Positions 852 through 46,046 of a stretch of 46,059 nucleotides of DNA are shown here, one piece after another (position 1 is the first letter of the stretch; the number at the start of each line of letters is the position of its first letter). The DNA lies in UHGV virus genome UHGV-0171654, one strand, 5' to 3'. The notes under the pieces were generated by a model that saw nothing but the letters and a program-made list of their open reading frames with translations, did no database searches and was not told the DNA's origin. The position numbers were made by a program, and so were the translations under genes. This DNA comes from a virus.

Positions 852-3800
852 TTATGAGGGTAGTACAGCAGTCAGCAGGTGTGCCGGTTCTGCCGTGTAT
901 GGTTCGGTTGAGGTATCTGTACCTGTGTAACTCGGCCCGCGACTGAGCATAATCATGAGCTGGTTATGCTCCCGCGCGATAGACGTATTAACCACAAGCT
1001 CCTGCGCACCGGGGTTGTAGGTGCCTACCAGCCACTCAACCAGATTATCGGGATCGGTACAATCAACGGCTCGAATCTGATTTTCACGCCCCATCTGTGT
1101 TGTGTGATAGAGCATGAAAACGCGACCATAGCGGGACCGAGCCAGTACAGGACGGCTGGCAATCGGAACCAGGATATTCGTTGCGGTAATGACTGTAAAT
1201 TCATAGTCAGTGAGAATATCTGTGGCCCAACCCGAACCCGTCCAGCGGATACGCACAACCTGAGTGCGACCGTTTGCCTGATGCTGCCATATGACAGTCT
1301 GGAACCGGTTTTCGACGTCAGTGCAGGAGCCGCACTGGTTGACGTAGCCGGATGACTGCGCAATGTTTGCGATGCGCTCCGAGTTTGATTCAGTCATCGG
1401 CAGTGCAAAACTCGCAGACCCCGCTGCGCTGGTAAACGTCTGACCTTTATCCGCCGAGACCCCGTAGAACATCCCGTAGTTTGTGTCAGCATTCCCCGCG
1501 CTCTGACGATAGCCCCAGCAGAGATGCAATCTGTCGTTATCATCCACGACAATGCGCTGTTCATACGGGTTCGAGTCCGTTGCATCAATGATTTTTGTTT
1601 CATTGATAAACGTTTTCGTCGCATCGTCAAACGTTGACATGTAGTAAGCGCCATCGCCGGAACGACCTACACGATAAAACGCACAAACGGTGCCGTCAGA
1701 GAACGTGACGAATCGCGGATACGTGATAAGGTCAAATGCAGTAAAAGAAATCGCTTCCCATGCCGATATGTCGTGCGGGTTTGTGGTGATAGCCGCCCGG
1801 CATGGGTGCGCGTGCATATTGCCCGCAACAATTACGTATCCCTCTTTCGTCACGACTAGCGAAAACAGGTTGTGTCCGTCGGGTTCGTTCGGAGAGTGGA
1901 ACGGATTACCTGCAATCGTGCTGAGGTCAAATTTTTGCCACGCACCACCATAAATACTGCGCTGCAAAATCATCGGGTTTCGCCCCAGAGAGACACCCAC
2001 CACGTACACATAATCACCCGCAATAACAACGTTGTCCTGACTGACCGGGTTGAAATTGTAGTCGGCGTAGTTGTCCAGCTCGAACGGCAGGCGCTCAATT
2101 GTCGCCTGCATGCGGTTTTCCGGGACTGAACTCAGGGCGTTAACCCGACGAGCTAACACTGACTCCGGTTTAATTTTTTCTACTTTGTGGTCGTAGTATT
2201 GTGCCGCCGTCATTCGCACGCGAACATACACATATCCGTCCTGGGTTGCCGTGCCCTCAACAGAGGCGTCCACCAGTCGTCCTGCGTTAGTGAACGTTAC
2301 GAGAACACCGACGAAATTTTTGGACGCGTCACACTGAATTATCGGCGCATACGTTCCTGTTGTTGATAACGCCCCCAGCCAGCCACGCAGCCGGATAACA
2401 TCCCCGACCGAGACAGGGATGTAATAAGCCCACCATCTGCTGGCAGTAGTAATCGACCCATCGCTGTTCATCACCTGACCCTTCGTGAGAACCGCTTCAT
2501 CGCAGGTATAGTCCGCGATAACCCGACTATCCAGCCCCTGGGTTGCATCCAGTTCGTCTACGGATTCGCGGTATTCATCGCCGGGTGCGAACGTGGACAG
2601 TTTTTTAGAGAGGACAAACGGGCTGGTGCCGAGACGATGACGAATGGCAATATAACCGTCTTGCGTGGCCGTGGCCTCCAGTTCACGAACCACTATCGCT
2701 CTAGTAGAGGCCCAGTATGTGAGGACGGAAACGAAGTTTTTATTTTCGTCAACCTGGAACATCCATTCGGCATTTCCTGTGGAATTGACGCCGACAGGGC
2801 CGCGATATTTCACGCTATCGCCAGGTTTGGCGGGAACGTATAACGTAATAAACGACTCGGTTGCCGTCTTCGTCCCGTCTGCATTCAGAGCATAGAAAAT
2901 CCCAAATTCATTATCCTGGGATTTTGAGATATCAAAATATCCGAGGTTTTTTTCAATCATCCCCACCCGGTCAGAACTGGCAGCACCGCCGGACTGGTCT
3001 GCTGTTTCCTCCGTGAATGTCCGCGCCTTGCGTAACACGATGGAAAAATCCAGAATCCCTGACGCGTCGGATTTTCGCACGCGCACAGCGATAAAACCGT
3101 CCTGCGCAGCGATCGCCGTCATCGAACCGTCTTCGGTAACCCCTTTTGATACGTAATATTTCAACACAGAGACAACGTTTTTATCAGCATCGCACTGTAT
3201 CATCTGTGGGATTTGTTCATTGTACGGTGCGCTGCCCAGCTTCCCGGTGAAATCAACCGCCTGATGCTTCTTAACCGGGATGTAATACATTGAAAAAGCG
3301 GCCGCAGGAGTCGTTGTGCCATCGGCATTTAACACAATACCGTTAACTTCAGTGGCCAGTGGTACAGCATCAACGCCCTCATAGCCAAATAAAACAGAAT
3401 CAGTAGCGTAACCGGCAACCCCGCCAGCGACATCAATATCAGACTCAACCAGAATCGTTTTTTTACGCTGCGTCAGAGTGAATTCGGCCGTGTCTCGCAC
3501 TCTGACGTATATATAACCGTCCTGAGTAGCCGTCGCCGATAATGTGGATTTGTCGGTTGGACTCCCCGTTGAGGTCCAGTAGGCAAGCGGCGCGACGAAC
3601 GATTTGTTGTTGTCGAGCTGGATGAGATACGCCATCTCCTCACCCACCGTATTAGATCCCACCGTGCCGCTGTAAGTGAATGTCTCCCCCTCGCGCGCCT
3701 TGAGATAGTAAGCATCCCATGATGCATTTGACTGCGTAGAGCCGTCAGCATTAATAACCAACCCGGCCGTAATATCAGCAGCGCCTTTTGCGTCCACTGT

Positions 3801-4439
3801 CACGTAGCCGGTTGTCAGCGCAGTCATTGATGGCATCGCCCGCCCGGTAGCCGCCAGCGTGCCACCGTTATTGATGTACTCGTTAGCCAGAGTGCTGTCA
3901 GCAGAATCCCTTACCCAGCAATACCCACCGCTTAAAATATTTCCTGCGGTGACATCACTTTGCGCCGCGCTTAATGTTGCATACTCCCTTATGCTGTTAC
4001 TGATTGAACCTTGCCCGGGATACTCAGCAACCTCAGAAGCCACGCCGGCATTATTTTGGTAATATCGAAATGCCAGAACATTACCAACGCCCTGAGGAAC
4101 GCGGAAATATTGACCAGAAGTTGTCCCGGCAATACCGGCAGTGGTGTCGGCAAAGGTGAGCTTATTGTCGCCGAACTCTGCGGCGGTTGATGCGGAAGCC
4201 ACAGCCTCATCTCTTGCAACTCCCGCCTCTGTTGCATATTGCAGTGAGTTTTCTTCTGATGTAGCCGCGCTTTGCTTGGATAAAAGAGCTGAGCCAGCTG
4301 CATCCTGGGCTTGCTGGGCGGCAGCACTAGTATCCTGATATCCTTGCTCGGCTTCCAGCATGTATTGTTTGGCTTCTGCGGCGCTAACGGCGGCATCTGC
4401 TGCTAATTGAGCAGTTTTTTGCGTTTCGGTGGTTGTCAT
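852..4439 (-). CDS. tail spike/tail fiber protein (1195 aa): N-terminal fiber anchor, four tandem ~145-aa repeat modules, C-terminal Asp-box (BNR)-containing putative glycosidase/depolymerase domain
   Basis: Last gene of tail module. Internal repeats each ending in ATQDGY[IV]x[VI]R[VH]R (aa ~304, 445, 591, 731), with NADG and QCDAxKN motifs. C-terminal region contains S-A-D-K-G-Q-T-F, a canonical SxDxGxTW/F Asp-box. Confidence 0.8.
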   Translation of the reverse strand: MTTTETQKTAQLAADAAVSAAEAKQYMLEAEQGYQDTSAAAQQAQDAAGSALLSKQSAATSEENSLQYATEAGVARDEAVASASTAAEFGDNKLTFADTTAGIAGTTSGQYFRVPQGVGNVLAFRYYQNNAGVASEVAEYPGQGSISNSIREYATLSAAQSDVTAGNILSGGYCWVRDSADSTLANEYINNGGTLAATGRAMPSMTALTTGYVTVDAKGAADITAGLVINADGSTQSNASWDAYYLKAREGETFTYSGTVGSNTVGEEMAYLIQLDNNKSFVAPLAYWTSTGSPTDKSTLSATATQDGYIYVRVRDTAEFTLTQRKKTILVESDIDVAGGVAGYATDSVLFGYEGVDAVPLATEVNGIVLNADGTTTPAAAFSMYYIPVKKHQAVDFTGKLGSAPYNEQIPQMIQCDADKNVVSVLKYYVSKGVTEDGSMTAIAAQDGFIAVRVRKSDASGILDFSIVLRKARTFTEETADQSGGAASSDRVGMIEKNLGYFDISKSQDNEFGIFYALNADGTKTATESFITLYVPAKPGDSVKYRGPVGVNSTGNAEWMFQVDENKNFVSVLTYWASTRAIVVRELEATATQDGYIAIRHRLGTSPFVLSKKLSTFAPGDEYRESVDELDATQGLDSRVIADYTCDEAVLTKGQVMNSDGSITTASRWWAYYIPVSVGDVIRLRGWLGALSTTGTYAPIIQCDASKNFVGVLVTFTNAGRLVDASVEGTATQDGYVYVRVRMTAAQYYDHKVEKIKPESVLARRVNALSSVPENRMQATIERLPFELDNYADYNFNPVSQDNVVIAGDYVYVVGVSLGRNPMILQRSIYGGAWQKFDLSTIAGNPFHSPNEPDGHNLFSLVVTKEGYVIVAGNMHAHPCRAAITTNPHDISAWEAISFTAFDLITYPRFVTFSDGTVCAFYRVGRSGDGAYYMSTFDDATKTFINETKIIDATDSNPYEQRIVVDDNDRLHLCWGYRQSAGNADTNYGMFYGVSADKGQTFTSAAGSASFALPMTESNSERIANIAQSSGYVNQCGSCTDVENRFQTVIWQHQANGRTQVVRIRWTGSGWATDILTDYEFTVITATNILVPIASRPVLARSRYGRVFMLYHTTQMGRENQIRAVDCTDPDNLVEWLVGTYNPGAQELVVNTSIAREHNQLMIMLSRGPSYTGTDTSTEPYTAEPAHLLTAVLPS
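2205..3872 (-). repeat. Four tandem in-frame ~430-nt repeat modules inside the tail spike gene (protein-level tandem domain array)
   Basis: Recurring NADG...YY[IL]P...QCDA.KN.V.VL...ATQDGY..VRVR blocks at aa ~220-320, 360-460, 510-605, 650-745 of the encoded protein. Confidence 0.7.
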
Positions 4440-6081: not shown

Positions 6082-7306
6082 TTACCGCCTCCGTTATGAT
6101 GTTTGTCGCATCGAGAGTCGGTTCCTGATCAATGCCCATGGTCAGCGCACTAGACCAGGTTGTTCCATCCAGGGATATCTGGACCGAAAGAACGTTCATG
6201 TTCTGCGCATCGAGCGCCTGGATAGGGCCGATATACCGGCTGCCATAAATTCGCGCGCCGGCACGCGCCCGGGTGCCACCATCTGCGCCGGTGAAGGAAT
6301 TCAGGACGACCGCTCTGATCTGCGCGTTGATATCTGACGGAAGGCCATCATTCTCTTCGTATTCCACCTTGATATGAACGCTCACCGCATCCAGCGTTTT
6401 CCACCTGTAGGTGTACTCCGGATAAGGGGCGTCATAATTTTCGGTATCCTGCACGGTCCCAGTGGTGTCACCGTTCATAACGGTGCCCGGGGGAAGTTTT
6501 TTATTGATGGCCGCTGCAATGTCAGCCACTGCTCCGCCATAAACCCCGATATAAATCGAGCTGGCCAGCAGCGTGTAATTCGTGGAACCTTTCTCGACGG
6601 AAGTCGGCTCTTTGTTGTCGATCACATAAACATCAAGCACCCCGTCGACTTCCAGGACAGCAGCCCGCACAGCAGCTGCCGTGTTGAAGGCGTTACGCGC
6701 TACCGACTGACGGCGCCGATACTCAAAGGCAGATCGCCCTTCCACATTTGATCCCGGAACGCCTGCGGTCTCGTTGGTAATGCTCGACCAGCCACTTACC
6801 GCAACATAGATGTTTGTCAGCGTCCCGATTGGGCAGGCTATCGGCCCGGTAGTCAGGTTCTGGAACTCGATTTTTACCGTCCCGTCTGCGCCTATCGTTC
6901 CGGCCGCCAAAGACACGTACATATAGCCGTTATCGTCGGTTGCATAGGACTGTGCGGGAATTACCGTTCCCGGCACGCCGGAGCATGTGGCCGTTACAAC
7001 CGTGCCCGCCGCAGCAATGCGGTCGAGGAAGTAAATCCTGCCGATGCCATCCTGAAATCTGCCGGAAGAAAAGTCCGGGTTCATGTTGTTGACGATAGCC
7101 AGAAGCTGATCGTTTTTGTCAGCGATGATTGCAGTATCAGTGACAGCCAGTTGCCCCTGCGGCGTCTTGAGGTTCATGCTCATCGCCGTCCCGAATGCAG
7201 AACCAATATCTGCTATACGCCCGGCAAGAATGTCTCCCTCATCTGGAACATCAAGGCCAGTGGTGGAAAAGGTCACGGCCGGTACCGCCGTAGAGATTGT
7301 CGTCAT
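6074..7306 (-). CDS. baseplate J-like protein
   Basis: ~410 aa; start chosen at MTTISTAV preceded by GAGGAAAAAATG RBS; conserved position after gpW-like gene; composition typical of Baseplate_J family. Confidence 0.7.
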   Translation of the reverse strand: MTTISTAVPAVTFSTTGLDVPDEGDILAGRIADIGSAFGTAMSMNLKTPQGQLAVTDTAIIADKNDQLLAIVNNMNPDFSSGRFQDGIGRIYFLDRIAAAGTVVTATCSGVPGTVIPAQSYATDDNGYMYVSLAAGTIGADGTVKIEFQNLTTGPIACPIGTLTNIYVAVSGWSSITNETAGVPGSNVEGRSAFEYRRRQSVARNAFNTAAAVRAAVLEVDGVLDVYVIDNKEPTSVEKGSTNYTLLASSIYIGVYGGAVADIAAAINKKLPPGTVMNGDTTGTVQDTENYDAPYPEYTYRWKTLDAVSVHIKVEYEENDGLPSDINAQIRAVVLNSFTGADGGTRARAGARIYGSRYIGPIQALDAQNMNVLSVQISLDGTTWSSALTMGIDQEPTLDATNIITEAVSE

Positions 7307-7313
7307 TTTTTCC

Positions 7314-7670
7314 TCACAGGGTGACGCTGGAATCCAGGCCGTTGGTATCCACGATCGCAATAACGCCGGTAGTGCGGCGCGTATCTCGGTTGTTAATCAG
7401 CGTCGGCTCAGCGCGCGCGATATAGCTCATTCGCAACGCTTCAACCTGAAGCGCGGCCGCCATGGCGCCAGTGCTAGCCTTAACGTTCAGCAGCTCTTTG
7501 TAATTAACGCCGGTGTCTTTTTCGTAAATGCATTCGCCGCGTATAGCCAGGCATGCCGTCGCTACGTCCTGAGCGCAGGCGTAGGGGTTTTCTACCGTGG
7601 CGATATTACCCAGCTCATCAAGGACAAGGTCCCAGGTTTCGGGATCGAGTTTGAGAGAGATTGTTTTCAT
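7314..7670 (-). CDS. baseplate wedge protein (gpW/gp25-like), 118 aa
   Basis: Small ORF starting MKTISLKLDPETWDLVLDELGNIATVENP..., between spike (gpV-like) and J-like genes; start follows a terminator T-tract. Confidence 0.5.
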   Translation of the reverse strand: MKTISLKLDPETWDLVLDELGNIATVENPYACAQDVATACLAIRGECIYEKDTGVNYKELLNVKASTGAMAAALQVEALRMSYIARAEPTLINNRDTRRTTGVIAIVDTNGLDSSVTL

Positions 7671-7683
7671 GGATTTCGCCCAT

Positions 7684-7708
7684 AAAAAAACCCCGCCGAA
7701 GCGAGGTT
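7684..7708 (-). terminator. rho-independent terminator after the lipoprotein moron
   Basis: Minus strand CCTCGCTTCGGCGGGG hairpin (TTCG tetraloop) followed by TTTTTTT. Confidence 0.7.
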
Positions 7709-7735
7709 TGAAAAACATAAGGTTAAGTGGTTGTG

Positions 7736-8392
7736 TTAATACATTGATTTGATCTGCGTGGTGCCGTCCGCAATACCGTACTTGCTCATTTTCCAGCAAG
7801 CCTCAGCAACCTGGATTATCTGGTATCGCATTTCAGGGCCAATTCCTTCTGTTAGGCTGATATTCTGTTTCATCAATTCCAAAGAAACGCCAGATCTCTC
7901 AGCCTCGCCTGCCGCCCGGCACATACGCCTTACCCCAGCGTCAGAATCAGCCTGCTGGTATGGATATCGGGCCATTAGAGAATAGTAGACATTATTTAAA
8001 GTGTAAGATGCGGAATCGATCTCACGCTTGGCCATGCACTCTTTACTAGCCTGACACTCAGCTTCTTTTTGCTTGGCTAATTCTTCATTTTCTTTTTTCT
8101 GCTGCTCTATCTGCCGCTGATACATCAAGTCGTGAAATAGGTCATTGTACCTATTGAAATAGCATTTATTATCTTTCCTACAATCGCTTGTATCTTGATC
8201 AGGAAGATTTTTACCAGTCACATTTCTATAAATTTCTCGCAAATCAGAAACGGACTGCAGGCCTCCAGAGTTCGTGGAAAATTTTGCCTTATCGAAGTTA
8301 TTTGATTTTTGATAATTAATATATTCCGCTGGCGACATTGCACATCCCGCCAAAGAAAACGAAATCATGAGAAGAAAAGACTTTTTTATCAT
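7736..8392 (-). CDS. putative lipoprotein (218 aa), low-GC moron inserted between baseplate genes
   Basis: Signal peptide plus lipobox (LMISFSLAGC); markedly AT-rich relative to flanks; own terminator downstream. Confidence 0.7.
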   Translation of the reverse strand: MIKKSFLLMISFSLAGCAMSPAEYINYQKSNNFDKAKFSTNSGGLQSVSDLREIYRNVTGKNLPDQDTSDCRKDNKCYFNRYNDLFHDLMYQRQIEQQKKENEELAKQKEAECQASKECMAKREIDSASYTLNNVYYSLMARYPYQQADSDAGVRRMCRAAGEAERSGVSLELMKQNISLTEGIGPEMRYQIIQVAEACWKMSKYGIADGTTQIKSMY

Positions 8393-8394
8393 TG

Positions 8395-8982
8395 TTACGG
8401 CTCCAGAGGATTTGTGCGGCTTCCTCCAGATTCTACCCCGCCGTGGTCGTGCCCATCAACGATTGAACCATCAACCAACTGCAATTTCCCGTTCGCGAGT
8501 ATCTTCAGGCCATTGATGTTAACCACGCCGGGGCTTTTGATGTTTATGCCGCTGCCGGTAAACTCTGCGTACTCAGTAGGATCGCCGTTCAGGCTAGCGA
8601 TAGCCGTGATGTAAACGGCATCTGAATACGAGTGCCTGCGCTGAGTTGGTGGCGGACCGCTTTGCCTTGATGCTCTGACATTGGTTGTGTCTTTGTCACA
8701 GGCGATTACCAGACCAATATCACCGATGCGGGGAGTCATTTTTACAGCGCTATTACCTGCCTGATACCGAATGAATGGAATGTCATATACCTCCTGACAT
8801 TTAATCTCCCCACCGGATACGTTCGCCCCGCTCACAAGAGGGAGCACAGTCATAACGCCATCACCAACATCTTTAACCAGAACAATATCAGCAAAAACAT
8901 TGCCCTTTGATGCCGAGGCTATAAGCGACAAGATCGCATTCCCCTGACAGGAGATGTCAGAAGCTTTTTGGTTAGTTGCCAT
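8395..8982 (-). CDS. baseplate central spike protein (gpV-like)
   Basis: Start at MATNQKAS (GGGGATAGCAATG); C-terminal ...LKILANGKLQLVDGSIVDGHDHGG typical of gpV spike tips. Confidence 0.6.
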   Translation of the reverse strand: MATNQKASDISCQGNAILSLIASASKGNVFADIVLVKDVGDGVMTVLPLVSGANVSGGEIKCQEVYDIPFIRYQAGNSAVKMTPRIGDIGLVIACDKDTTNVRASRQSGPPPTQRRHSYSDAVYITAIASLNGDPTEYAEFTGSGINIKSPGVVNINGLKILANGKLQLVDGSIVDGHDHGGVESGGSRTNPLEP

Positions 8983-9841
8983 TGCTATCCCCGCCGATGA
9001 CAGATGCAGGAGACGCCACAACAAATGTCTCCCAAAGTCCACCAGGTACCTTACAAGACAAGTAGTGGGTTGTTCCCGCTTGTACCACCCACTCTCCGCT
9101 AGCATGTGGAAGCTCTGTTTCAAGAATGATCTTAGTGTTCAATTTTAGCGCCGGTGAATAAATGCACCTAAAGTTAATCCCCATCTCATAAAATATTGGA
9201 TAACCAATAAGCCCAGTGGCTGGAGAAATATACGGAACAACTGAATCCGACGGTGTTTTACCTGTGTAAATTGTGACAGTGCCAAAATCTATATCAACAG
9301 ATATGTTATGCGCTGCCGCAATTTTTAATATTTGCATTATAGCGTTGTCATCGAAATATGGATTTCGATGGGTAGCCTTGACGTCCACGTTAATGAACTT
9401 TAAACCAACTTTAAAGGCAAGAGCACGAATCATATCAGCCACATCAGCATCGCCACGAATGGACGTTGGCTCACATGGGATCAGGCGCTCCCTTCCGGCT
9501 GCCGCCGCAGTTATCTCAATCGGGGCATCCGGCATCTGGTTCAGGTTAATCCTGGCAGATGTTATTGACCCGGAAAAAACACGGGTATCACCGGCATAAA
9601 CGACGATTGAATTCTGTGCATACGCGATTATCTTTTGCGCGTTTGTCGTCAGCTTGGACATGTTTTCCAGGGAAAGTCCCCAGAGGCTAAGTTCAAGAAT
9701 GGTTCCGGTAGCGCCGCCAAAGGCAGATATAGCCGCTTCACACTTGAACCCCTTAACAGTCAGGGTGTCACCAGTATCGCCATCAAAAGTTCCATTGGCC
9801 AGCGTGAACGATACAGTAAGCTCTCTCTCCTTGTAACTCAT
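8972..9841 (-). CDS. baseplate/tail protein (hub-like, 289 aa)
   Basis: Position between tail protein genes and gpV-like spike; overlapping stop/start. Confidence 0.45.
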   Translation of the reverse strand: MSYKERELTVSFTLANGTFDGDTGDTLTVKGFKCEAAISAFGGATGTILELSLWGLSLENMSKLTTNAQKIIAYAQNSIVVYAGDTRVFSGSITSARINLNQMPDAPIEITAAAAGRERLIPCEPTSIRGDADVADMIRALAFKVGLKFINVDVKATHRNPYFDDNAIMQILKIAAAHNISVDIDFGTVTIYTGKTPSDSVVPYISPATGLIGYPIFYEMGINFRCIYSPALKLNTKIILETELPHASGEWVVQAGTTHYLSCKVPGGLWETFVVASPASVIGGDSNGN

Positions 9842-10987: not shown

Positions 10988-12952
10988 TTATTGTCCTGAG
11001 TAGCCAGCCAAAAGCATGACACGGTTGTCGCCGTGCTTTTTGATGTCGCTGGTAAGCTGTTCCACGTTCTGGGCCTGGGTGGTGATTTTGGTGCCATAAA
11101 ACTGATAAGTCGCACCGGACTGTCCGGGCATTGCGCGGTCTACGGCCATCCCGGCGCCAGGGCGCATTCCGGCCATGACTTTAGGGACGTAATTGCGAGT
11201 TTCCGACGGCAGGTTACCCATGCCTTTCTTCTGGACGTTTCCGAGCCCCCAGTTATAGGAGGCAAGAGTTTTTTCCAGGTCGCCACCGGTAGCATCCAGC
11301 AGATAGCGCAGGTATCTTGCAGCGGCATCAGCTGACTTGTGGGGGTCATAAACGTCCATCCCCTTCAAACCCAAGTCTCTGGCAGTTCCATCCATAAACT
11401 GGAATGGGCCTTTCGCCCCTTTAGGGGATACTGCGAACGGGTCGCCACCTGATTCAGTACCAGCCACCGAAGACAGCAGCCGGGCGGGGAGTCCATATTT
11501 ACCTTCCAGCGCCCCGAATTCGCCAGCCATCGCCTGAAGAAATGCCTTTCCTTTGGCGCCAAGGCGAGCGGCCTGCGCGTTAAGCGGGACGTTTGACTGG
11601 TATCCCGAGGTATCTGGCTGCATTGTTGCCGCGCCAGCTGGAGAGATCAGGGCGTCAGCGATTTTTGAAAGGAGATTTTTGGTGCTTTCCCAGTAGTCTC
11701 TTTCATCCTGCTGCTGCCGACGCTGTTCAGGAAGTGGCTGAAACTTAACAGCATCAAGCATTTTTTGCGTTGCCTGCTGCTGCGGGCTTAGATACGCAGA
11801 GTCCTGATCAGGTTTAAAATCCAGTGTGCCGCCGTTTTTCTTCAGCGCCTGCTCGGCTGCCCTGGTCACTCCGGGCAGCGCATCATTACCGGTAGGCTTT
11901 CCGTCTTCAGTGCCGTACCACGCCTTTTTAAACTCATCGGCAGCCTTGGAGAAGTTGCCGTTATTGAGCTCGTTTAAAGCGTTACCCAGGTGGTTTAGCA
12001 CTTTTCCGAGCATGGAAAAGTTATCTTTGAGGTTGCGCAGATCGCCTGATAGCGTCCAGCTACCAAGGTCAATACCAGTAATGTCGTTAATGTCCCGCTT
12101 CAGCTCTTTGAAGAATGAAGAGGATTTTGCGTTACCAGACGACCACTCAATGAGGAGGCCATTCAGATCGCGAATGGTTGGTATCAATCCCACGTAAATC
12201 TGGTTTTTTACCGTGTCGAGATTTTGCCCCAGCTCCGCCCATGCGGCTGTAAATTCCTTTGCGCCTTTGGTTGAGGCATCTGTAATGCCGGAGCTTTTAG
12301 TCAGCCGGTCAACATCAGTTAGGAATTTTCCTTCCTGATTGCGCTGGTTGATAGCGTCATCAATACCAACCAACTGAAGAATCTGACGGCGGATATCTGG
12401 ATCGGTAACCTTCCTTGCCGACTCCAGTATTTTCCTGAACGTGGTTTGTGCTGAGTCGTCCCTGATGTTGAAAGAATCATGGGTCAGTGAATTAAGCCGG
12501 ATTGCTGCTTCCTGCACTGGCGTATCGTACACTCCGACCTTGGCCAGTTGCTTTGCATTCTGAAATCCCTGCAATGCTGCACTTATTTTCTCGACAGAAC
12601 TACCGGCCGCCTCTGCCGCCTTACCCACGCCGTCAAGCTCTTTGGCTGTCATCCCCAGCGATTTAGCCTGAATGGACAACTCCATCAGTCCGGAGGTGGT
12701 GCTTTTCACAAAGCTCATCAGGCCGCCGGCCGTGACGGTAACGCCAGTAAGTGCCAGAAGTTCCGTCTTTATGCTGCTGAAGAACGAAGCAGCTTTCTTG
12801 CCCTGCTCTGCCATTTCTTTGGCGGTGTTTTTGGCGTCCTCGCGCTGCTTTTTCAGGTCGTCACTGACTTCCTGCTGGCCTTTGCGGAACTGAGAAGTAT
12901 CAAGGCCCAGCGTCACCAGGAGGGCGTCAATTACCGTTGCTGCCATGATCAC
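10988..12952 (-). CDS. tail tape measure protein with C-terminal soluble lytic transglycosylase (SLT) domain
   Basis: 654 aa, alpha-helical N-terminal region; SLT motifs GTESGGDPFAVSPKGAKGPFQFM ... ASYNWG at aa ~480-620 (nt ~11093-11521). Confidence 0.8.
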   Translation of the reverse strand: MIMAATVIDALLVTLGLDTSQFRKGQQEVSDDLKKQREDAKNTAKEMAEQGKKAASFFSSIKTELLALTGVTVTAGGLMSFVKSTTSGLMELSIQAKSLGMTAKELDGVGKAAEAAGSSVEKISAALQGFQNAKQLAKVGVYDTPVQEAAIRLNSLTHDSFNIRDDSAQTTFRKILESARKVTDPDIRRQILQLVGIDDAINQRNQEGKFLTDVDRLTKSSGITDASTKGAKEFTAAWAELGQNLDTVKNQIYVGLIPTIRDLNGLLIEWSSGNAKSSSFFKELKRDINDITGIDLGSWTLSGDLRNLKDNFSMLGKVLNHLGNALNELNNGNFSKAADEFKKAWYGTEDGKPTGNDALPGVTRAAEQALKKNGGTLDFKPDQDSAYLSPQQQATQKMLDAVKFQPLPEQRRQQQDERDYWESTKNLLSKIADALISPAGAATMQPDTSGYQSNVPLNAQAARLGAKGKAFLQAMAGEFGALEGKYGLPARLLSSVAGTESGGDPFAVSPKGAKGPFQFMDGTARDLGLKGMDVYDPHKSADAAARYLRYLLDATGGDLEKTLASYNWGLGNVQKKGMGNLPSETRNYVPKVMAGMRPGAGMAVDRAMPGQSGATYQFYGTKITTQAQNVEQLTSDIKKHGDNRVMLLAGYSGQ

Positions 12953-13150: not shown

Positions 13151-13627
13151 CTAGCTTGCGGTGGCTGCTACAAAAGCGATATGGAGTTTGAAGGCTTCGA
13201 TTTTCAGGCGCGACCAGGTGCTGATTTCTTCGATCTGACCTTCGTCAACAAGCGCTGTTTCGATACCATTGCCGCCGAGGAATTTCACGCAGCCAAGCAG
13301 CTCATCAAGCAGAGGCTTTGACTGTGCGAACGGGACTTTAGCCAGTGAAGTGATACCCCACTGAGCGAGACCGGCCATACCGCTGGCCATCACGCTTTCG
13401 TACAGCTCGCGTGCTTCTGCATTATCCTCGGCCGGGGCCGGAGCAACCGCGGCACCGATGGCCGCCATCATATTGTCGGGAACGGTAACCCCGGCGCCAA
13501 TCACAGCGCACGCCAGGCGGATCGCCCACTCTTCGGCCTTTCTCGCCGGCATTTCGGTTATTTTGAACTGCTTACCCTTGTCACGGTTATCTGCCTCAAC
13601 CGTAAATACGATGCTTTTACGAGCCAT
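13151..13627 (-). CDS. tail assembly chaperone (gpG-like)
   Basis: 158 aa, immediately upstream of tape measure with ~200-nt gap in which a -1 frame stays open (see findings). Confidence 0.5.
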   Translation of the reverse strand: MARKSIVFTVEADNRDKGKQFKITEMPARKAEEWAIRLACAVIGAGVTVPDNMMAAIGAAVAPAPAEDNAEARELYESVMASGMAGLAQWGITSLAKVPFAQSKPLLDELLGCVKFLGGNGIETALVDEGQIEEISTWSRLKIEAFKLHIAFVAATAS

Positions 13628-13655
13628 TTTTGTTTCCTGAATGAGTTATCTGGCA

Positions 13656-13680
13656 ATAAAAAAGCCCACCAGAGTGGGCC
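13656..13680 (-). terminator. rho-independent terminator downstream of Rha-like gene
   Basis: Minus strand GCCCACTCTGGTGGGC hairpin followed by TTTTTTATT. Confidence 0.65.
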
Positions 13681-13706
13681 ATTCAAAAACCACTGAACTG
13701 TGGGTT

Positions 13707-14261
13707 TCATGATTCGACAAGCGCACCAGGAAATCCTGGCAATGCCAACTGACCTTGCTTTTCCAATTGCTCAATGCGTGAAAGTAACTGCGGCTTCTTC
13801 TCTTTTCCCCAGCGTCGTAGCAGGCGACCCGACATACTGGCGACATCCTTCTCTTTCATGAACTCCAGCATGACGGCATTACGCTCAGACTCTAAATTTC
13901 GCGTCCCTTGCGCAATCATATCGGCCATCCAGTCAAAAGCGGCAATGTATGCTTCCTTAAATGCAAAGGCGGCAGCACCGGTAAAGCTGAAGACCAGCAT
14001 AGTCCATCCGTTGCGAGTCATTTTGTAGAAAGGTTGAGGCTTTCCGTTCTGTAACTCATTGTTTTCATGGCAAAGCGTAAAATTGCGCTCTGCAAAATCT
14101 GGCGAACATGAACTGATTACCTTCCTGGTTTTCCTCATAACGTCCTTGTGTTCTTTCCTGAACGCCTTCGCGACTTTAAATGTATCGGTCGCAGACTCTG
14201 TGCCAGAGAGAAAAATCAGCTCTCGAAAATCGAAACCGTTAATAACAGTTGGGTATTGCAT
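13707..14261 (-). CDS. Rha-family phage regulatory protein (moron between tail tube and chaperone genes)
   Basis: N-terminal VAKAFRKEHKDVMRKTRKVI resembles the Rha F-G-K-x-H-x-x-V-L-R-x-I signature; flanked by terminators on both sides. Confidence 0.5.
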   Translation of the reverse strand: MQYPTVINGFDFRELIFLSGTESATDTFKVAKAFRKEHKDVMRKTRKVISSCSPDFAERNFTLCHENNELQNGKPQPFYKMTRNGWTMLVFSFTGAAAFAFKEAYIAAFDWMADMIAQGTRNLESERNAVMLEFMKEKDVASMSGRLLRRWGKEKKPQLLSRIEQLEKQGQLALPGFPGALVES

Positions 14262-14436: not shown

Positions 14437-14880
14437 TTACGCTGAGTACTCTGCTGGGGTGACAGTTTCCCACTGGATGAGTCCAGTTACCGGCTGAAGA
14501 ACACGACCAGCAGACGGCATACGGCGCGCGCGCTGCAGGATACCGTTGGTCATGATGTACTTTTTACCCAGCGACGGCAGGATCACCGTCCCATTAACAC
14601 GCAGCACAGACCGCGTGGTCATCTGCGTGGTTTGCCAGTTGTCGATGTACTTAATCGACGGGGATGATGCCGCCAGATGGAAAGTCCACGGCAGATCACC
14701 ATAAACAAAACCACCCAGCAGTTTCCCGTCAGCAGTACGCTGGTACTCTGCCGTGTCGGTATCACCCATTTCGAAGATGTTTTGCGCTTCGAACTGTTCC
14801 AGGTTAAAACCGGATGGGTAGAGCTCAGCGATTACCAGCTCGATGATGGCGTCAGCCGCCGTAATATTTTGACCGGGCAT
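14437..14880 (-). CDS. tail tube protein
   Basis: 147 aa, immediately downstream of sheath gene (ATGA-type overlap), typical myovirus order. Confidence 0.65.
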   Translation of the reverse strand: MPGQNITAADAIIELVIAELYPSGFNLEQFEAQNIFEMGDTDTAEYQRTADGKLLGGFVYGDLPWTFHLAASSPSIKYIDNWQTTQMTTRSVLRVNGTVILPSLGKKYIMTNGILQRARRMPSAGRVLQPVTGLIQWETVTPAEYSA

Positions 14881-28838: not shown

Positions 28839-29648
28839 TCATCTCGTCACCCTGGAGAGAATGACATCAGCGTATGATTCCTGTTTGTGACATTCGGATA
28901 CCAGCTCCTCGAAGAACGGCTTCAACTGCTCATAAGCTACCGTTTTCTTAATGTCAGCAACGGCCCTTACTCCTTCCATTACCGTCGAAAACTTCATGCG
29001 AGCATAACCTTTTCCGCTGCAGCGATCGCACACCTTCATTACCGGTATCCCAAGTCGCTCGCTGGTCTCTTTATCCAGTACCTTTCCTTTCCCATTGCAG
29101 CGACACGAATTGCTGATAACACCCTTTCCGTTACAGGCAGAGCATTTAACTTTGACCACCTCGCGGATTTCGCTCCAACACTCCCAGTGGCTTGGGCGTA
29201 CCGCGCGGGACATCTTTGCCCAATAAGGTGGCTTGCCCCACGGATATGAGCATTTATTGGTGAACACCTGGGCCTCTGTGAAGCCAGTCCCATCGCAGCA
29301 AGTGCATTTTCTAACGCTGGCAGCACTTCGCGTGTAATCCTGGTATGCAAAAGCACACAGAACTTCGAGAACTCTTTTGCGAACGTCCTGGCTGAGTTCT
29401 GAAACGATGTTAAAGCGGTTTGATAATCGTTCTGCTGATTCATAAAGTAGCTCCATTGCTCGGTCAGGTGTGCTTACCCCAATCTTTGCCAGATAGAGGT
29501 CGAAGCCGAATCCGCACTTGGCATTTACCAGCCCAAGAGCGGCCATGATGTCAGTGCCGGTTAGGCCATCCGATGCAGTAGCCCGTGGCGAGTCACTCAG
29601 CATTGGTGATTTAGGCGCGAAGTATTTGGCGATAGATTCGAGGTTCAT
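28839..29648 (-). CDS. Q: late gene antiterminator, lambda Q family, with expanded zinc-binding region (four CxxCxGxG-type repeats)
   Basis: N-terminus MNLESIAKYFAPKSPMLSDSPRATASDGLTGTDIMAA closely matches lambda Q MRLESVAKFHSPKSPMMSDSPRATASDSLSGTDVMAA; C-terminus ...ECHKQESYADVILSRVTR matches ...QCHKEESIADNILNAVTR; central CTCCDGTG, CSACNGKG, CRCNGKG, CDRCSGKG. Confidence 0.85.
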   Translation of the reverse strand: MNLESIAKYFAPKSPMLSDSPRATASDGLTGTDIMAALGLVNAKCGFGFDLYLAKIGVSTPDRAMELLYESAERLSNRFNIVSELSQDVRKRVLEVLCAFAYQDYTRSAASVRKCTCCDGTGFTEAQVFTNKCSYPWGKPPYWAKMSRAVRPSHWECWSEIREVVKVKCSACNGKGVISNSCRCNGKGKVLDKETSERLGIPVMKVCDRCSGKGYARMKFSTVMEGVRAVADIKKTVAYEQLKPFFEELVSECHKQESYADVILSRVTR

Positions 29649-44670: not shown

Positions 44671-45006
44671 ATGGCGTCTGACAAACCGATAACAGCACAG
44701 CAGGCCGCCGATTTGCTCATCGTGTCTGCGCGGGTGATCTACCGCCTGATTGATTCTGGAGAGCTCGCCGGCCGCAAGGTCGGCAACAAGTACAGAACGA
44801 CCGAGGCTGCGTGTATTGCATATTTGAAAACCCCGCGCGATCCTGTCATCGCGAACGCGGGTGAACATAAAGGAGAAGTTTTATGTCAATCACCCTCAGG
44901 GGCGGCGTGTGGCACTGTCATTTCTTTACGCCGTCAGGGAAAAGAGTTAGGCGATCTCTTGGCACGGGGGACAAAAAGCAGGCGCAGGAGCTCCACGATA
45001 AGCTAA
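44671..45006 (+). CDS. xis: excisionase-like DNA-binding protein (Xis); ORF extends into int, true stop may be earlier in another isolate
   Basis: [36 protein letters not shown]... excisionase-type HTH; immediately upstream of and overlapping int. Confidence 0.55.
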
Positions 45007-46046
45007 AGGCTGAAGCATGGCGGGTTGACCAGATCGGCGACCTGCCTGTCAGAACCTTTGAAGAGTGCTGTATCCGGTGGCTGCGGGAGAAAGACCACAA
45101 ACGGTCGCTGGATGATGACAAAACCAAAATAGAGTTTTGGCTGCAGCATTTTTCCGGCCACGACGTTTCGAAAATAACGGCGGAGGAAATTCACGAAGCC
45201 GTTAACGGGATGATTAACCGTAAGCACCTGCAGGTGTGGGAGAGTAAACGTGATGCCGCGTTGAGGAAGGGAAGGCCGATTCCGGAGTACAAGCCACGGC
45301 AGGTTTCTCAGGCGACGAAGGCGCAGCACCTTTCCTTCATTAGGTCCTTGCTCAGGGCCGCGGCGAATGACTGGGGCTGGATAAAAACGGCGCCAGTTAT
45401 CAAAACCCGCAAGCCAATCAGTAAGCGAATACGGTGGCTGACCAGAGAAGAAGCTGAACGGTTGATCGAGTGCATGCCGGAGAGCATTAAACCAGTGGTG
45501 ATATTTGCACTGGCAACCGGCCTGCGCCGCTCAAACATCATCGGGCTTGAGTGGCAGCAGGTCGATATGCAGAGAAAGGTTGCATGGGTAAATCCGGAGA
45601 ACGCAAAAGCGGGCAAGGCGATTGGCGTAGCTCTGAATGATACCGCATGCAGGGTATTAAGGGATCAGATAGGGAAGCACTCCCGGTGGGTGTTCGTTCA
45701 CACGACGGCAAAACATCGCCCGGATGGAACGCTGACGCCCGCCGTGAGAAAAATGCGAGTGGATGACAATAACGCCTGGCGCGCCGGACTGAAAAAAGCG
45801 GGGATAGAGGATTTCCGTTTTCACGACCTCCGGCATACCTGGGCGAGCTGGTTAATCCAGTCCGGTGTCCCGCTTTCTGTTTTGCAGGAAATGGGCGGAT
45901 GGGAGAGCATCGAGATGGTGCGCCGTTATGCTCACCTGGCACCAAACCATTTGACCGAGCACGCACGGAAAATTGACGCCATTTTTGGCGCTAGCGACAC
46001 AAATACGACACAAGAAGGAAATCAGGCTGGACTAAAACTTGCGTAA
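44883..46046 (+). CDS. int: tyrosine site-specific integrase
   Basis: [11 protein letters not shown] (Arg box), [26 protein letters not shown] (catalytic Tyr) motifs; GGAGAAGTTTTATG RBS; terminal position next to expected att/tRNA. Confidence 0.9.

What the first reader, a model, noticed from the sequence alone, without database searches (positions are those of the whole stretch)
7684..8392. Low-GC lipoprotein moron with its own terminator inserted between baseplate spike (gpV-like) and gpW-like genes
A 218-aa protein with a signal peptide and lipobox (LAGC) lies in a markedly AT-rich segment inside an otherwise GC-rich, tightly coupled baseplate operon. It is followed by a strong hairpin-T7 terminator, the hallmark of a horizontally acquired moron expressed from the prophage. 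Phage-encoded lipoproteins in such positions often mediate superinfection exclusion or receptor masking (T5 Llp, Cor-type) or alter envelope properties of the lysogen. Its Cys- and charge-rich mature part has no recognisable family.
Basis: partly seen in the sequence, partly recalled or inferred. Interest (0 to 1): 0.55.

Follow-up and report, generated by a model that had tools for sequence, protein, structure and literature searches.

The report
Prophage lipoprotein moron in baseplate operon
A Klebsiella-type prophage carries an optional, foreign-looking gene for an outer-membrane-anchored lipoprotein in a swap-in cargo site inside its tail-baseplate operon; it most likely protects the lysogen's envelope against other phages, but its function is untested.

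Summary
ORF 7736-8392 (-) encodes a 218-aa protein with a lipoprotein signal peptide (MIKKSFLLMISFSLAG|C). It is the lowest-GC stretch of the 46-kb prophage (0.417 vs 0.529). It starts 2 nt after the spike gene's stop and is followed by a hairpin-T7 terminator 13 nt before the gpW-like gene.

In 76 related phages the spike|gpW junction is a cargo site of 457-3847 nt. Only 24 carry this lipoprotein. The others carry unrelated exported or membrane proteins, often with a P22 immI-like Arc/Mnt/antirepressor module.

More distant family members (26-39% identity) sit at other tail-operon junctions, on the opposite strand, in a phage early region, on a small plasmid-like contig and in an Aeromonas chromosome. 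The gene is therefore accessory, not structural.

A terminator follows the gene in all 21 lipoprotein-bearing versions of the site. A promoter-like site lies just upstream in 6 of 11 divergent loci.

The protein is all-helical, has six conserved cysteines besides the lipidated one, and matches no Pfam, NCBIfam, PADLOC or PDB entry; its only family match is PHROG 26209 (function unknown).

Superinfection exclusion is the best-supported function, by position and analogy only. Verdict: a well-supported moron from an uncharacterised family, of moderate interest.

The parts
7736..8392 (-). Lipoprotein gene (218 aa incl. 16-aa signal peptide; stop codon 7736-7738). Codons 18-105 (8078-8341) form the variable, very AT-rich half. 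Codons 106-218 (7739-8077) form the conserved helical half.
   Evidence: ORF and translation. PHROG 26209 E 2e-119. Homologues. GC 0.417. dN/dS 0.11-0.12 and N/C mosaic. AF2 all-helical model, pLDDT 88.
8342..8392 (-). Signal peptide plus lipobox (MIKKSFLLMISFSLAG|C). The Cys17 codon is 8342-8344. Ala at +2 means no Asp inner-membrane retention signal.
   Evidence: Sequence. Cys17 is invariant in the 17-sequence alignment and >=90% conserved in the 38-sequence alignment.
7684..7709 (-). Intrinsic-terminator-like hairpin (9-bp stem, TTCG loop) plus T7 run. It is the conserved boundary of the cargo site next to gpW.
   Evidence: The same hairpin is present in 59 of 76 relatives with different cargo, with one compensatory C-G to A-T change in 3 loci.
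8430..8459 (-). Sigma-70 promoter-like site TTGATG-18-TAGAAT inside the spike gene's 3' end. The -10 element ends 38 nt before the ATG. This is a candidate prophage promoter and is not demonstrated.
   Evidence: 9 of 12 matches; no excess over shuffles in this region alone. In one search, such sites occur within 100 nt upstream in 6 of 11 divergent loci (about 0.04 expected per locus, binomial 1.6e-6).
8401..8404 (-). Shine-Dalgarno GGAG, 8 nt before the ATG, lying inside the last spike codons (CTG GAG CCG TAA). This allows translational coupling to the spike gene.
   Evidence: Sequence. The motif is conserved in every lipoprotein gene shown from its true start, including L011 (where it lies in the spike-3' remnant); four of the 21 listings began at an internal start.
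8395..8982 (-). Left flank: central spike gene (gpV-like, HxH apex motif). Its conserved 3' end is the left recombination anchor of the cargo site.
   Evidence: A 45-nt remnant of a spike 3' end travels with the lipoprotein gene in L011.
7314..7670 (-). Right flank: gpW-like sheath-initiator / baseplate wedge gene, 97-100% identical in 76 relatives.
28839..29648 (-). Q-like antiterminator at the head of the single late operon (holin, endolysin, terminase, head and tail genes, all on the minus strand). It explains how late transcription could pass the terminator.
   Evidence: PHROG 127, E 4e-92.

Best explanation
The gene is a moron: an optional, horizontally exchanged cassette in a recombination-bounded cargo site between the spike and gpW genes of a lambdoid prophage with an E217/Pam3-type contractile tail.

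Shown:
- The cassette is present in about a third of close relatives and is replaced in the others by unrelated exported or membrane proteins.
- It has deviant base composition and is under purifying selection.
- It is always followed by a terminator.
- The phage has a Q-type antiterminator.

Inferred:
- In the lysogen the gene is transcribed from a weak promoter embedded in the spike gene's 3' end and stops at the hairpin.
- During lytic growth Q-modified polymerase reads through, so the gene is also made late, translationally coupled to the spike gene.
- The product is exported and lipidated at Cys17. With Ala at +2 it is sorted to the outer membrane facing the periplasm. It would form a helical protein held by three disulfides (C71-C77, C113-C119, C158-C199).
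- It consists of a variable N-terminal module in at least 5 discrete types and a conserved C-terminal bundle.

Most likely function (by position and analogy): envelope-level protection of the lysogen against superinfecting phages. It would be the counterpart of sieA in the P22 'ant moron' and of the Llp, Cor and mEpimmI-Lpp exclusion lipoproteins. It would act either on an outer-membrane receptor or on the incoming tail tip in the periplasm.
For: Accessory, mobile status:
- 69 distinct versions of the site, 457-3847 nt; the lipoprotein is present in 24 of 76 loci.
- The alternative first-position genes are not homologous to it.
- All alternatives carry signal peptides or transmembrane segments (sequences; Zn-ribbon membrane protein).
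- Family members lie after the spike gene, after the SLT tape-measure gene, between wedge and fibre genes in Yersinia phages, on the opposite strand, beside a TIR gene in a phage early region, on a 3.1-kb Rop-bearing (ColE1-type plasmid-like) contig and in an Aeromonas chromosome.

Gene and transcription signals:
- Lowest GC in the window.
- dN/dS 0.11-0.12.
- Terminator after the gene in all 21 lipoprotein-bearing versions of the site and in 7 of 11 divergent loci.
- Upstream promoter-like sites enriched.
- Q-like antiterminator.

Exported, folded protein:
- Lipobox and six further conserved cysteines.
- Confident helical model.

Exclusion analogy:
- In relatives the lipoprotein leads an Arc/Mnt plus P22-antirepressor module. 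This is the arrangement of sieA plus immI in the P22-like 'ant moron' (PMC2629481; SieA mechanism in PMC10883804).
- Lipoprotein genes inside a structural cluster were shown to exclude phages in the mEpimmI group (PMC11893012).
- The N-terminal half comes in discrete types that are shuffled independently of the C-terminal half, as expected for a specificity module.
Against: - There is no functional or expression data for any family member.
- There is no sequence or fold similarity to Llp, annotated exclusion PHROGs, PADLOC defence models or any PDB structure.
- The N-terminal type does not co-vary with the fibre, spike, hub or tape-measure alleles of the same phage. That argues against a T5-like Llp/receptor-binding-protein pairing.
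- Raoultella sp. BIGb0138 holds two related prophages that each carry an allele, so exclusion of this phage group cannot be absolute.
- The promoter call rests on a loose consensus. In the window it overlaps conserved codons of the spike apex motif.
- The window's own cargo site has no immI-like module.
Confidence: 0.45

Rival explanations
1. A lysogenic-conversion lipoprotein that benefits the host for reasons unrelated to phages, such as serum or complement resistance, envelope stress tolerance or adhesion, in the manner of lambda Bor or Lom.
For: Same moron anatomy as above. Sporadic chromosomal and plasmid-like copies function away from any phage tail. There is no co-variation with tail proteins. 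Two related prophages carrying the gene coexist in one genome.
Against: No similarity to Bor, Lom, TraT or any Pfam family. The gene is nearly always on phage DNA and mostly within one tail type. It shares its site with Arc/Ant immunity modules and, in other loci, sits beside HEPN-like and TIR genes, which are phage-conflict cargo. Discrete swapped N-terminal types fit better with an arms-race partner.
Confidence: 0.2
2. A lytic-cycle accessory function, expressed with the late genes. It could protect progeny virions from abortive ejection into debris or vesicles ('lytic conversion' as with T5 Llp), or modulate cell-wall or outer-membrane events at lysis.
For: The start codon is 2 nt after the spike stop and its Shine-Dalgarno sequence lies in the spike's last codons. 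In other lineages the gene overlaps or abuts the spike or SLT tape-measure gene. Q-antiterminated late transcription must pass through it.
Against: One relative has the gene on the opposite strand to the late operon and another has it in an early region. A terminator directly after the gene and upstream promoter-like sites point to an independent transcription unit. The lysis cassette lies elsewhere, at 27.3-28.5 kb. This role could coexist with exclusion.
Confidence: 0.15
3. A conserved structural or assembly component of the baseplate.
For: Only its position inside the baseplate gene block, and its co-orientation and coupling with the spike gene.
Against: It is absent from 52 of 76 phages whose gpW is 97-100% identical, and is replaced there by unrelated genes. 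A Sec/Lsp export signal would remove the protein from the cytoplasm where tails assemble. It has foreign base composition. Members occur on plasmid-like and chromosomal DNA.
Confidence: 0.03

Closest known systems
The 'ant moron' of P22-like phages (sieA, hkc genes, mnt-arc-sar-ant inside the late operon; PMC2629481, PMC10883804)
   Same: A variable cargo region interrupts a late virion operon between two tail or ejection genes. Its content differs among close relatives. In relatives of this window the same site holds Arc/Mnt-type repressors plus a P22-type antirepressor, led by an envelope protein. Late transcription must read through it.
   Different: The host phage is a contractile-tailed E217/Pam3-type virus, not a podovirus. 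The junction is spike|gpW. The leading gene encodes a lipoprotein unrelated to the polytopic inner-membrane SieA. The window's own site contains the lipoprotein alone.
T5 Llp (lytic conversion lipoprotein, PDB 8a60) and Cor of phi80/N15/HK022 (Cor from my own knowledge)
   Same: A phage-encoded outer-membrane lipoprotein containing cysteines in its mature part, encoded near tail genes. These proteins are proposed or shown to block reinfection at the envelope.
   Different: There is no homology: the family profile matches Llp only over the signal peptide (E 0.6). The mature protein is about 200 aa and all-helical, against about 60 aa. There is no co-variation with fibre alleles. No receptor is known.
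mEpimmI-group Lpp exclusion lipoproteins (PMC11893012)
   Same: Lipoprotein genes located within the structural gene cluster of temperate enterobacterial phages. They come in several sequence types and are present in most but not all genomes. When cloned, Lpp021 and Lpp010 excluded nearly all phages that use the matching receptor (Lpp010 also excluded lambda; mEp013 escaped).
   Different: Different phage group, with siphovirus J-type tails. My scans gave no indication of relatedness. Function has been demonstrated there but not here.
Lambda and HK97 morons (bor, lom, HK97 gp15), per the Juhala/Hendrix definition (own knowledge)
   Same: A single gene with deviant GC, flanked by transcription signals and inserted between late genes. 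It is present in some relatives only.
   Different: The cargo site here behaves as a cassette-exchange locus with conserved anchors (the spike 3' end, and the hairpin with the gpW leader). It holds at least four alternative first-position genes.
T4 Spackle (Sp) and S. thermophilus TP-J34 Ltp (own knowledge; Ltp family in PMC3952083)
   Same: Exported, largely helical proteins that block superinfection after adsorption. Sp inhibits the spike lysozyme and Ltp, a lipoprotein, targets the tape-measure protein.
   Different: No sequence or fold match was found. A target among tail-tip proteins is pure hypothesis here.

Membership tests
Bacterial lipoprotein (Lgt/LspA substrate) | Signal peptide with a basic n-region, a hydrophobic core and a lipobox [LVI][ASTVI][GAS]C | tested here: met
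   MIKK-SFLLMISFS-LAG|C. The Cys is invariant in the 17-sequence alignment and >=90% conserved in the 38-sequence alignment. LPAM_1 gave weak hits in 5 members.
Bacterial lipoprotein (Lgt/LspA substrate) | Actual acylation and outer-membrane sorting | not testable with these tools
   The only indication is Ala rather than Asp at +2, from the sequence.
Moron (Juhala/Hendrix sense) | Present in some, absent from other closely related phage genomes at the same junction | tested here: met
   24 of 76 junctions carry it; gpW is 97-100% identical across them.
Moron (Juhala/Hendrix sense) | Base composition deviating from neighbouring genes | tested here: met
   GC 0.417 vs 0.529; lowest of all 657-nt windows in the 46 kb.
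Moron (Juhala/Hendrix sense) | Own terminator downstream | tested here: met
   A hairpin plus T-run follows the gene in all 21 lipoprotein-bearing versions of the site and in 7 of 11 divergent loci. In the window the hairpin is the one shared by other cassettes.
Moron (Juhala/Hendrix sense) | Own promoter; expression from the repressed prophage | tested here: inconclusive
   The site at 8459-8430 is not above chance alone. Such sites are enriched across 11 loci, P about 1.6e-6, with a loose consensus. The opposite-strand member implies independent transcription. No expression data exist.
T5 Llp / Cor-type receptor-blocking lipoproteins | Sequence or structural homology to Llp | tested here: not met
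   The family profile against PDB matches 8a60_B only over the signal peptide, E 0.6. Foldseek against PDB gave no hit with E below 1.
T5 Llp / Cor-type receptor-blocking lipoproteins | Allele type paired with the phage's receptor-binding protein | tested here: not met
   The same 347-aa fibre allele occurs with four N-terminal types, and the same N-terminal type occurs with different fibre alleles. The true receptor-binding protein is not known.
T5 Llp / Cor-type receptor-blocking lipoproteins | Exclusion phenotype and receptor binding | not testable with these tools
   Requires plating, adsorption and binding assays.
P22 SieA-type exclusion within an ant moron | Gene lies beside an immI-like (Arc/Mnt/Ant) module inside the late operon | tested here: inconclusive
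   Met in relatives. Not met in the window itself, whose cargo site holds only the lipoprotein.
P22 SieA-type exclusion within an ant moron | Polytopic inner-membrane protein homologous to SieA | tested here: not met
   No transmembrane segment beyond the cleaved signal peptide. The only PHROG hit is 26209.
o-spanin (Rz1-type lipoprotein) | Small lipoprotein encoded in or next to the i-spanin gene in the lysis cassette | tested here: not met
   218 aa, located 19 kb from the holin and endolysin genes at 27.3-28.1 kb. One weak O_Spanin_T7 hit in 1 of 38 members.
Periplasmic lysozyme / lytic-transglycosylase inhibitors (Ivy, MliC/PliC, LprI/DUF1311) | Sequence or fold match to one of these families | tested here: not met
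   No Pfam hit in 38 members at E<=1. The best structural hit to DUF1311 (3gi7) has E 3.5 and TM 0.29.

The most novel reading that the evidence does not exclude
The family is a new class of envelope-level anti-phage effector for contractile-tailed phages. It would be an outer-membrane-anchored, disulfide-stapled helical lipoprotein whose conserved C-terminal bundle intercepts the incoming tail tip in the periplasm (the spike, or the SLT domain of the tape-measure protein). Its swappable N-terminal module would set specificity. That would make it a myovirus counterpart of P22 SieA or T4 Spackle. It would travel with an Arc/Ant module as a portable 'sie plus immI' unit shared between podovirus and myovirus late operons.
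Probability: 0.15. Interest if true: 0.65.

Novelty: new member of a known kind. Interest (0 to 1): 0.4.

Why it matters
Klebsiella prophages strongly shape which therapeutic phages can infect clinical strains, yet very few envelope-level exclusion proteins are known for this genus. This gene gives a compact test case: a single 657-nt gene from a family with no known fold relatives and natural domain-swap variants.

The spike|gpW cargo site offers at least four alternative exported proteins, all of unknown function, as a ready-made candidate list for exclusion or lysogenic-conversion functions. The site also shows that the P22 'ant moron' layout recurs in contractile-tailed phages. If the gene turns out to have no phage-related phenotype, it is simply one more moron of unknown function.

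Tried and rejected
Function searches that found nothing:
- Pfam, NCBIfam and PADLOC scans of the protein and of 38 family members gave no credible family.
- Foldseek of a confident AF2 model gave nothing against PDB (best E 1.5) and only a family member against BFVD.
- A family profile against PDB sequences matched only signal peptides.
- Rfam on 7300-9000 gave only sub-threshold hits driven by the terminator hairpin.

Relatedness and co-variation tests that were negative:
- hhalign of the family against the alternative cargo proteins (F4, F12 and the L117 224-aa protein) showed no relation.
- No co-variation of the lipoprotein N-terminal type with fibre, spike halves, hub, plug or SLT tape-measure alleles.
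- A crude Nei-Gojobori test gave dN/dS about 0.11-0.12 in both halves, so there is no evidence of positive selection; saturated pairs were excluded.

Database scans with little or no yield:
- Scanning genome contigs with the broad alignment A2 failed because no stretch was conserved enough. With A1 it found only one Raoultella genome.
- The PLSDB protein search gave no true plasmid hits.
- Distant blastn against E. coli genomes found no copy.
- The repeat finder did not detect the spike 3' remnant in L011, because the resident spike there is a different allele. The remnant was seen by direct reading.

Readings rejected:
- Spanin, structural protein and lysozyme-inhibitor readings were considered and rejected; see the membership tests.
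- Literature searches found no characterised homologue.

Full report
**What is in the sequence.**
- On the minus strand, ORF 7736-8392 encodes 218 aa beginning MIKKSFLLMISFSLAGCAMS. This is a basic n-region, a hydrophobic core and the lipobox L-A-G-C, with Ala at +2.
- Its ATG lies 2 nt after the stop of the upstream gene (TAA-CA-ATG). A GGAG Shine-Dalgarno sequence sits inside that gene's last codons.
- Twenty-six nt after the stop comes a 9-bp hairpin with a TTCG loop and a T7 run (7709-7684). Thirteen nt further on is the ATG of the next gene.
- The upstream gene (8395-8982) carries a phage-spike N-terminal domain and the GpV apex motif, both weak Pfam matches.
- The downstream gene (7314-7670) is a sheath-initiator/gpW-type wedge protein (PHROG 120, E 3e-29). 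Baseplate J follows it. A baseplate hub, plug and SLT-domain tape-measure-like gene lie upstream of the spike.
- The lipoprotein gene has GC 0.417 against 0.529 for the window. It is the lowest of all 657-nt windows in the 46 kb, and its N-terminal half is 0.352.

**The wider window.** The window is a complete lambdoid prophage. It has an integrase at 44883-46046. A Q-like antiterminator (28839-29648, PHROG 127, E 4e-92) heads a single minus-strand late operon of holin, endolysin, terminase, head genes and an E217/Pam3-type contractile tail.

**It is a real, selected gene in a small family.**
- The protein is a full-length member of PHROG 26209 (E 2e-119, function unknown).
- Pfam, NCBIfam and PADLOC give nothing credible.
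- A word-indexed search found 18 clusters at 54-94% identity, all from Klebsiella or Raoultella where named.
- A profile search of 1.84 billion representatives found only 47 clusters.
- Nearly all members keep a lipobox.
- Six further cysteines are well conserved. C158 and C199 are invariant, C77, C113 and C119 are at least 90% conserved, and C71 is less so across the broad set. A P-Y-x-Q...D...R..C motif and a C-W motif are also kept.
- Pairwise dN/dS is about 0.11-0.12 in both halves.
- The N-terminal half falls into discrete types at 100, 90, 84, 74, 56, 46 and 31% identity. These are recombined independently of the better-conserved C-terminal half (65-96%).

**Structure.** AlphaFold2 on the 17-sequence alignment gives a confident model (pLDDT 88, pTM 0.58) that is almost entirely helical. 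It includes a 40-residue helix spanning the N/C boundary. Foldseek finds no PDB neighbour (best E 1.5). In BFVD it finds only a family member annotated 'Lipoprotein'. A family profile against PDB sequences matches only signal peptides, including that of T5 Llp (8a60_B, E 0.6).

**The spike|gpW junction is a cargo site.**
- Megablast showed that Klebsiella phages and E. coli prophages share the gpW gene and the hairpin at 97% identity. Similarity stops at about 7710.
- In phage ST15-VIM1phi2.1 the gap holds a 126-aa membrane zinc-ribbon protein followed by the same hairpin.
- In E. coli AMR2684 the gap holds that protein plus two Arc-family repressors, a P22-type antirepressor and another gene.
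- Across 80 IMG/VR loci with a gpW relative, 76 junctions were complete. There are 69 distinct versions, 457-3847 nt long.
- The first gene after the spike is one of four unrelated exported or membrane proteins:
  - this lipoprotein (24 loci, 21 distinct versions);
  - a 233-aa signal-peptide protein;
  - the zinc-ribbon membrane protein;
  - a 116-aa signal-peptide protein.
- An optional second module of Arc/Mnt-like and antirepressor-like genes follows in many versions. None of the alternatives is related to the lipoprotein by profile comparison.
- When present, the lipoprotein gene usually starts 2-5 nt after the spike stop. L011 is an exception (see below).

**Boundaries and transcription signals.**
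- The hairpin at 7688-7709 bounds the site next to gpW in 59 of 76 relatives, whatever cargo precedes it. Three loci show a compensatory C-G to A-T change. The other 17 end in a 95-aa ORF without a hairpin. The hairpin is therefore a shared boundary element rather than private to this gene.
- Every one of the 21 lipoprotein-bearing versions nevertheless has a terminator directly after the gene. Single-cargo versions use the shared hairpin. Multi-cargo versions use a different one (GCCCACC-ATYA-GGTGGGT plus T-run).
- That second hairpin type also follows members with only 28-39% protein identity: P0019, P0021, P0031 and the Yersinia phage homologue.
- In L011 a reverse-strand gene separates the spike from the lipoprotein gene. 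The lipoprotein gene there still carries a 45-nt remnant of another spike allele's 3' end. This marks the left edge of the mobile unit.
- A sigma-70-like site (TTGATG-18-TAGAAT, 8459-8430) lies in that stretch. Alone it is not above chance.
- Applying the same rule to 11 divergent loci, 6 have a same-strand site within 100 nt upstream, against about 0.04 expected per locus (binomial 1.6e-6). Four of these end 32-38 nt before the ATG. I treat this as suggestive only.
- With a Q antiterminator present, the classic moron logic applies. A short terminated transcript is made in the lysogen, and antiterminated late transcription reads through during lytic growth.

**Contexts of distant members.**
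- P0019, P0027 and P0033 (33-39% identity) sit directly after the spike gene of other E217-type phages. Other cargo follows before gpW: an HTH/S24 repressor plus antirepressor, a laminin-G protein, or Bro/antirepressor plus Arc.
- P0031 sits directly after the SLT tape-measure gene and leads an Arc-Arc-antirepressor module before the baseplate genes.
- P0021 lies in the same region but on the opposite strand, beside a HEPN-like pair and Arc.
- The Yersinia phage homologue lies between a wedge gene and the tail-fibre gene of a Pam3-type baseplate.
- P0023 lies in the early region of a DNA-polymerase-A phage, next to a TIR-domain gene.
- P0024 is on a 3.1-kb contig carrying Rop, so it looks like a ColE1-type plasmid.
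- P0045 is in a non-phage Aeromonas chromosomal context and is rare, with 3 clusters.
- This pattern excludes a structural role and shows a self-contained accessory gene.

**Mechanism.**
- Shown: accessory status, export signal, conserved cysteines, helical fold, a terminator, and an antiterminated late operon.
- Inferred: prophage expression, outer-membrane anchoring and three disulfides.
- The function rests on position and analogy. P22-like phages have an 'ant moron' in their late operon that combines immI (mnt, arc, ant) with the exclusion gene sieA (PMC2629481). SieA blocks DNA entry by acting on the ejection proteins (PMC10883804).
- mEpimmI coliphages carry lipoprotein genes within their structural cluster. 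When cloned, these excluded nearly all phages that use the matching receptor (PMC11893012).
- Here an envelope protein leads the same kind of module, and all alternative first-position genes are also envelope-targeted. I therefore favour superinfection exclusion, at about 0.45.
- Four points count against this reading:
  - there is no homology to any known exclusion protein;
  - the N-terminal type does not co-vary with fibre, spike, hub or tape-measure alleles;
  - one Raoultella genome holds two related prophages that each carry an allele;
  - there are no expression data.
- Rivals are a phage-unrelated conversion function (0.2), a late-lytic accessory role (0.15) and a structural role (0.03).

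**Comparison and novelty.** This is a new, uncharacterised member of a well-known kind, the prophage moron encoding an envelope lipoprotein. It is not a member of the Llp, SieA, spanin or lysozyme-inhibitor families, since defining features were tested and not met. What is less ordinary is the cassette-exchange site with conserved anchors, the recurrence of the P22 'ant moron' layout in contractile-tailed phages, and a roughly 200-aa helical lipoprotein family with no structural relatives and modular N-terminal types. Interest is moderate (0.4).

Noticed in passing
window 13151-14261 (-), between tail tube 14437-14880 and SLT tape-measure-like gene 10988-12952: A second cargo site in the tail operon. 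It holds a Rha/ORF11CD3 regulatory protein (13707-14261) and a 158-aa protein with no family (13151-13627). In the E. coli relative L123 the same site holds a BamE-like lipoprotein and a KilA-N protein.
   Followed up: partly
L004-L083, region between spike stop and gpW start (gpW at 4001): Three other exported or membrane proteins of unknown function alternate with the lipoprotein at the first cargo position. They are a 233-aa signal-peptide protein, a 126-aa zinc-ribbon membrane protein (PHROG 8436) and a 116-aa signal-peptide protein (PHROG 13007). An Arc/Mnt plus antirepressor module is often present as well.
   Followed up: partly
L117 1214-2369 (-): Next to an opposite-strand family member lies a 134-aa protein with a HEPN-like RHHADYH motif and a 253-aa partner, beside an Arc gene. 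This may be a toxin-antitoxin or defence pair in the same cargo region.
   Followed up: no
L124 5788-6522 and L125 1758-2492: A CAP12/PCTIR TIR-domain gene lies convergent with a family member in the early region of a DNA-polymerase-A phage.
   Followed up: no
L011 3225-3281: A 45-nt remnant of a different spike allele's 3' end lies directly upstream of the lipoprotein gene, after an inserted reverse-strand 149-aa gene (PHROG 26342). It looks like a footprint of cassette exchange by recombination in the spike 3' end.
   Followed up: yes
window 7664-7690 (-): The terminator's U-run and the following bases are predicted to pair with the gpW start region (UUUUUAUGG with CCAUGAAAA). This second hairpin, directly after the terminator, could occlude the gpW start codon. 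An out-of-frame ATG lies at 7683-7681.
   Followed up: no
L113 and L114 (Raoultella sp. BIGb0138, two contigs): One genome carries two related prophages of this type, each with a different lipoprotein allele (61% and 84% identity to the window's protein).
   Followed up: partly
window 852-4439 (-): A 1195-aa distal tail protein with a BNR_4 domain (E 1e-37), possibly a capsule- or glycan-degrading tail spike. It is the most variable tail protein among relatives.
   Followed up: no
window 7736-8392 compared with E. coli genomes: No copy of the lipoprotein gene was found in 5,426 complete E. coli genomes, although five of them carry the same prophage backbone with other cargo. The numbers are too small to claim host restriction.
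   Followed up: partly
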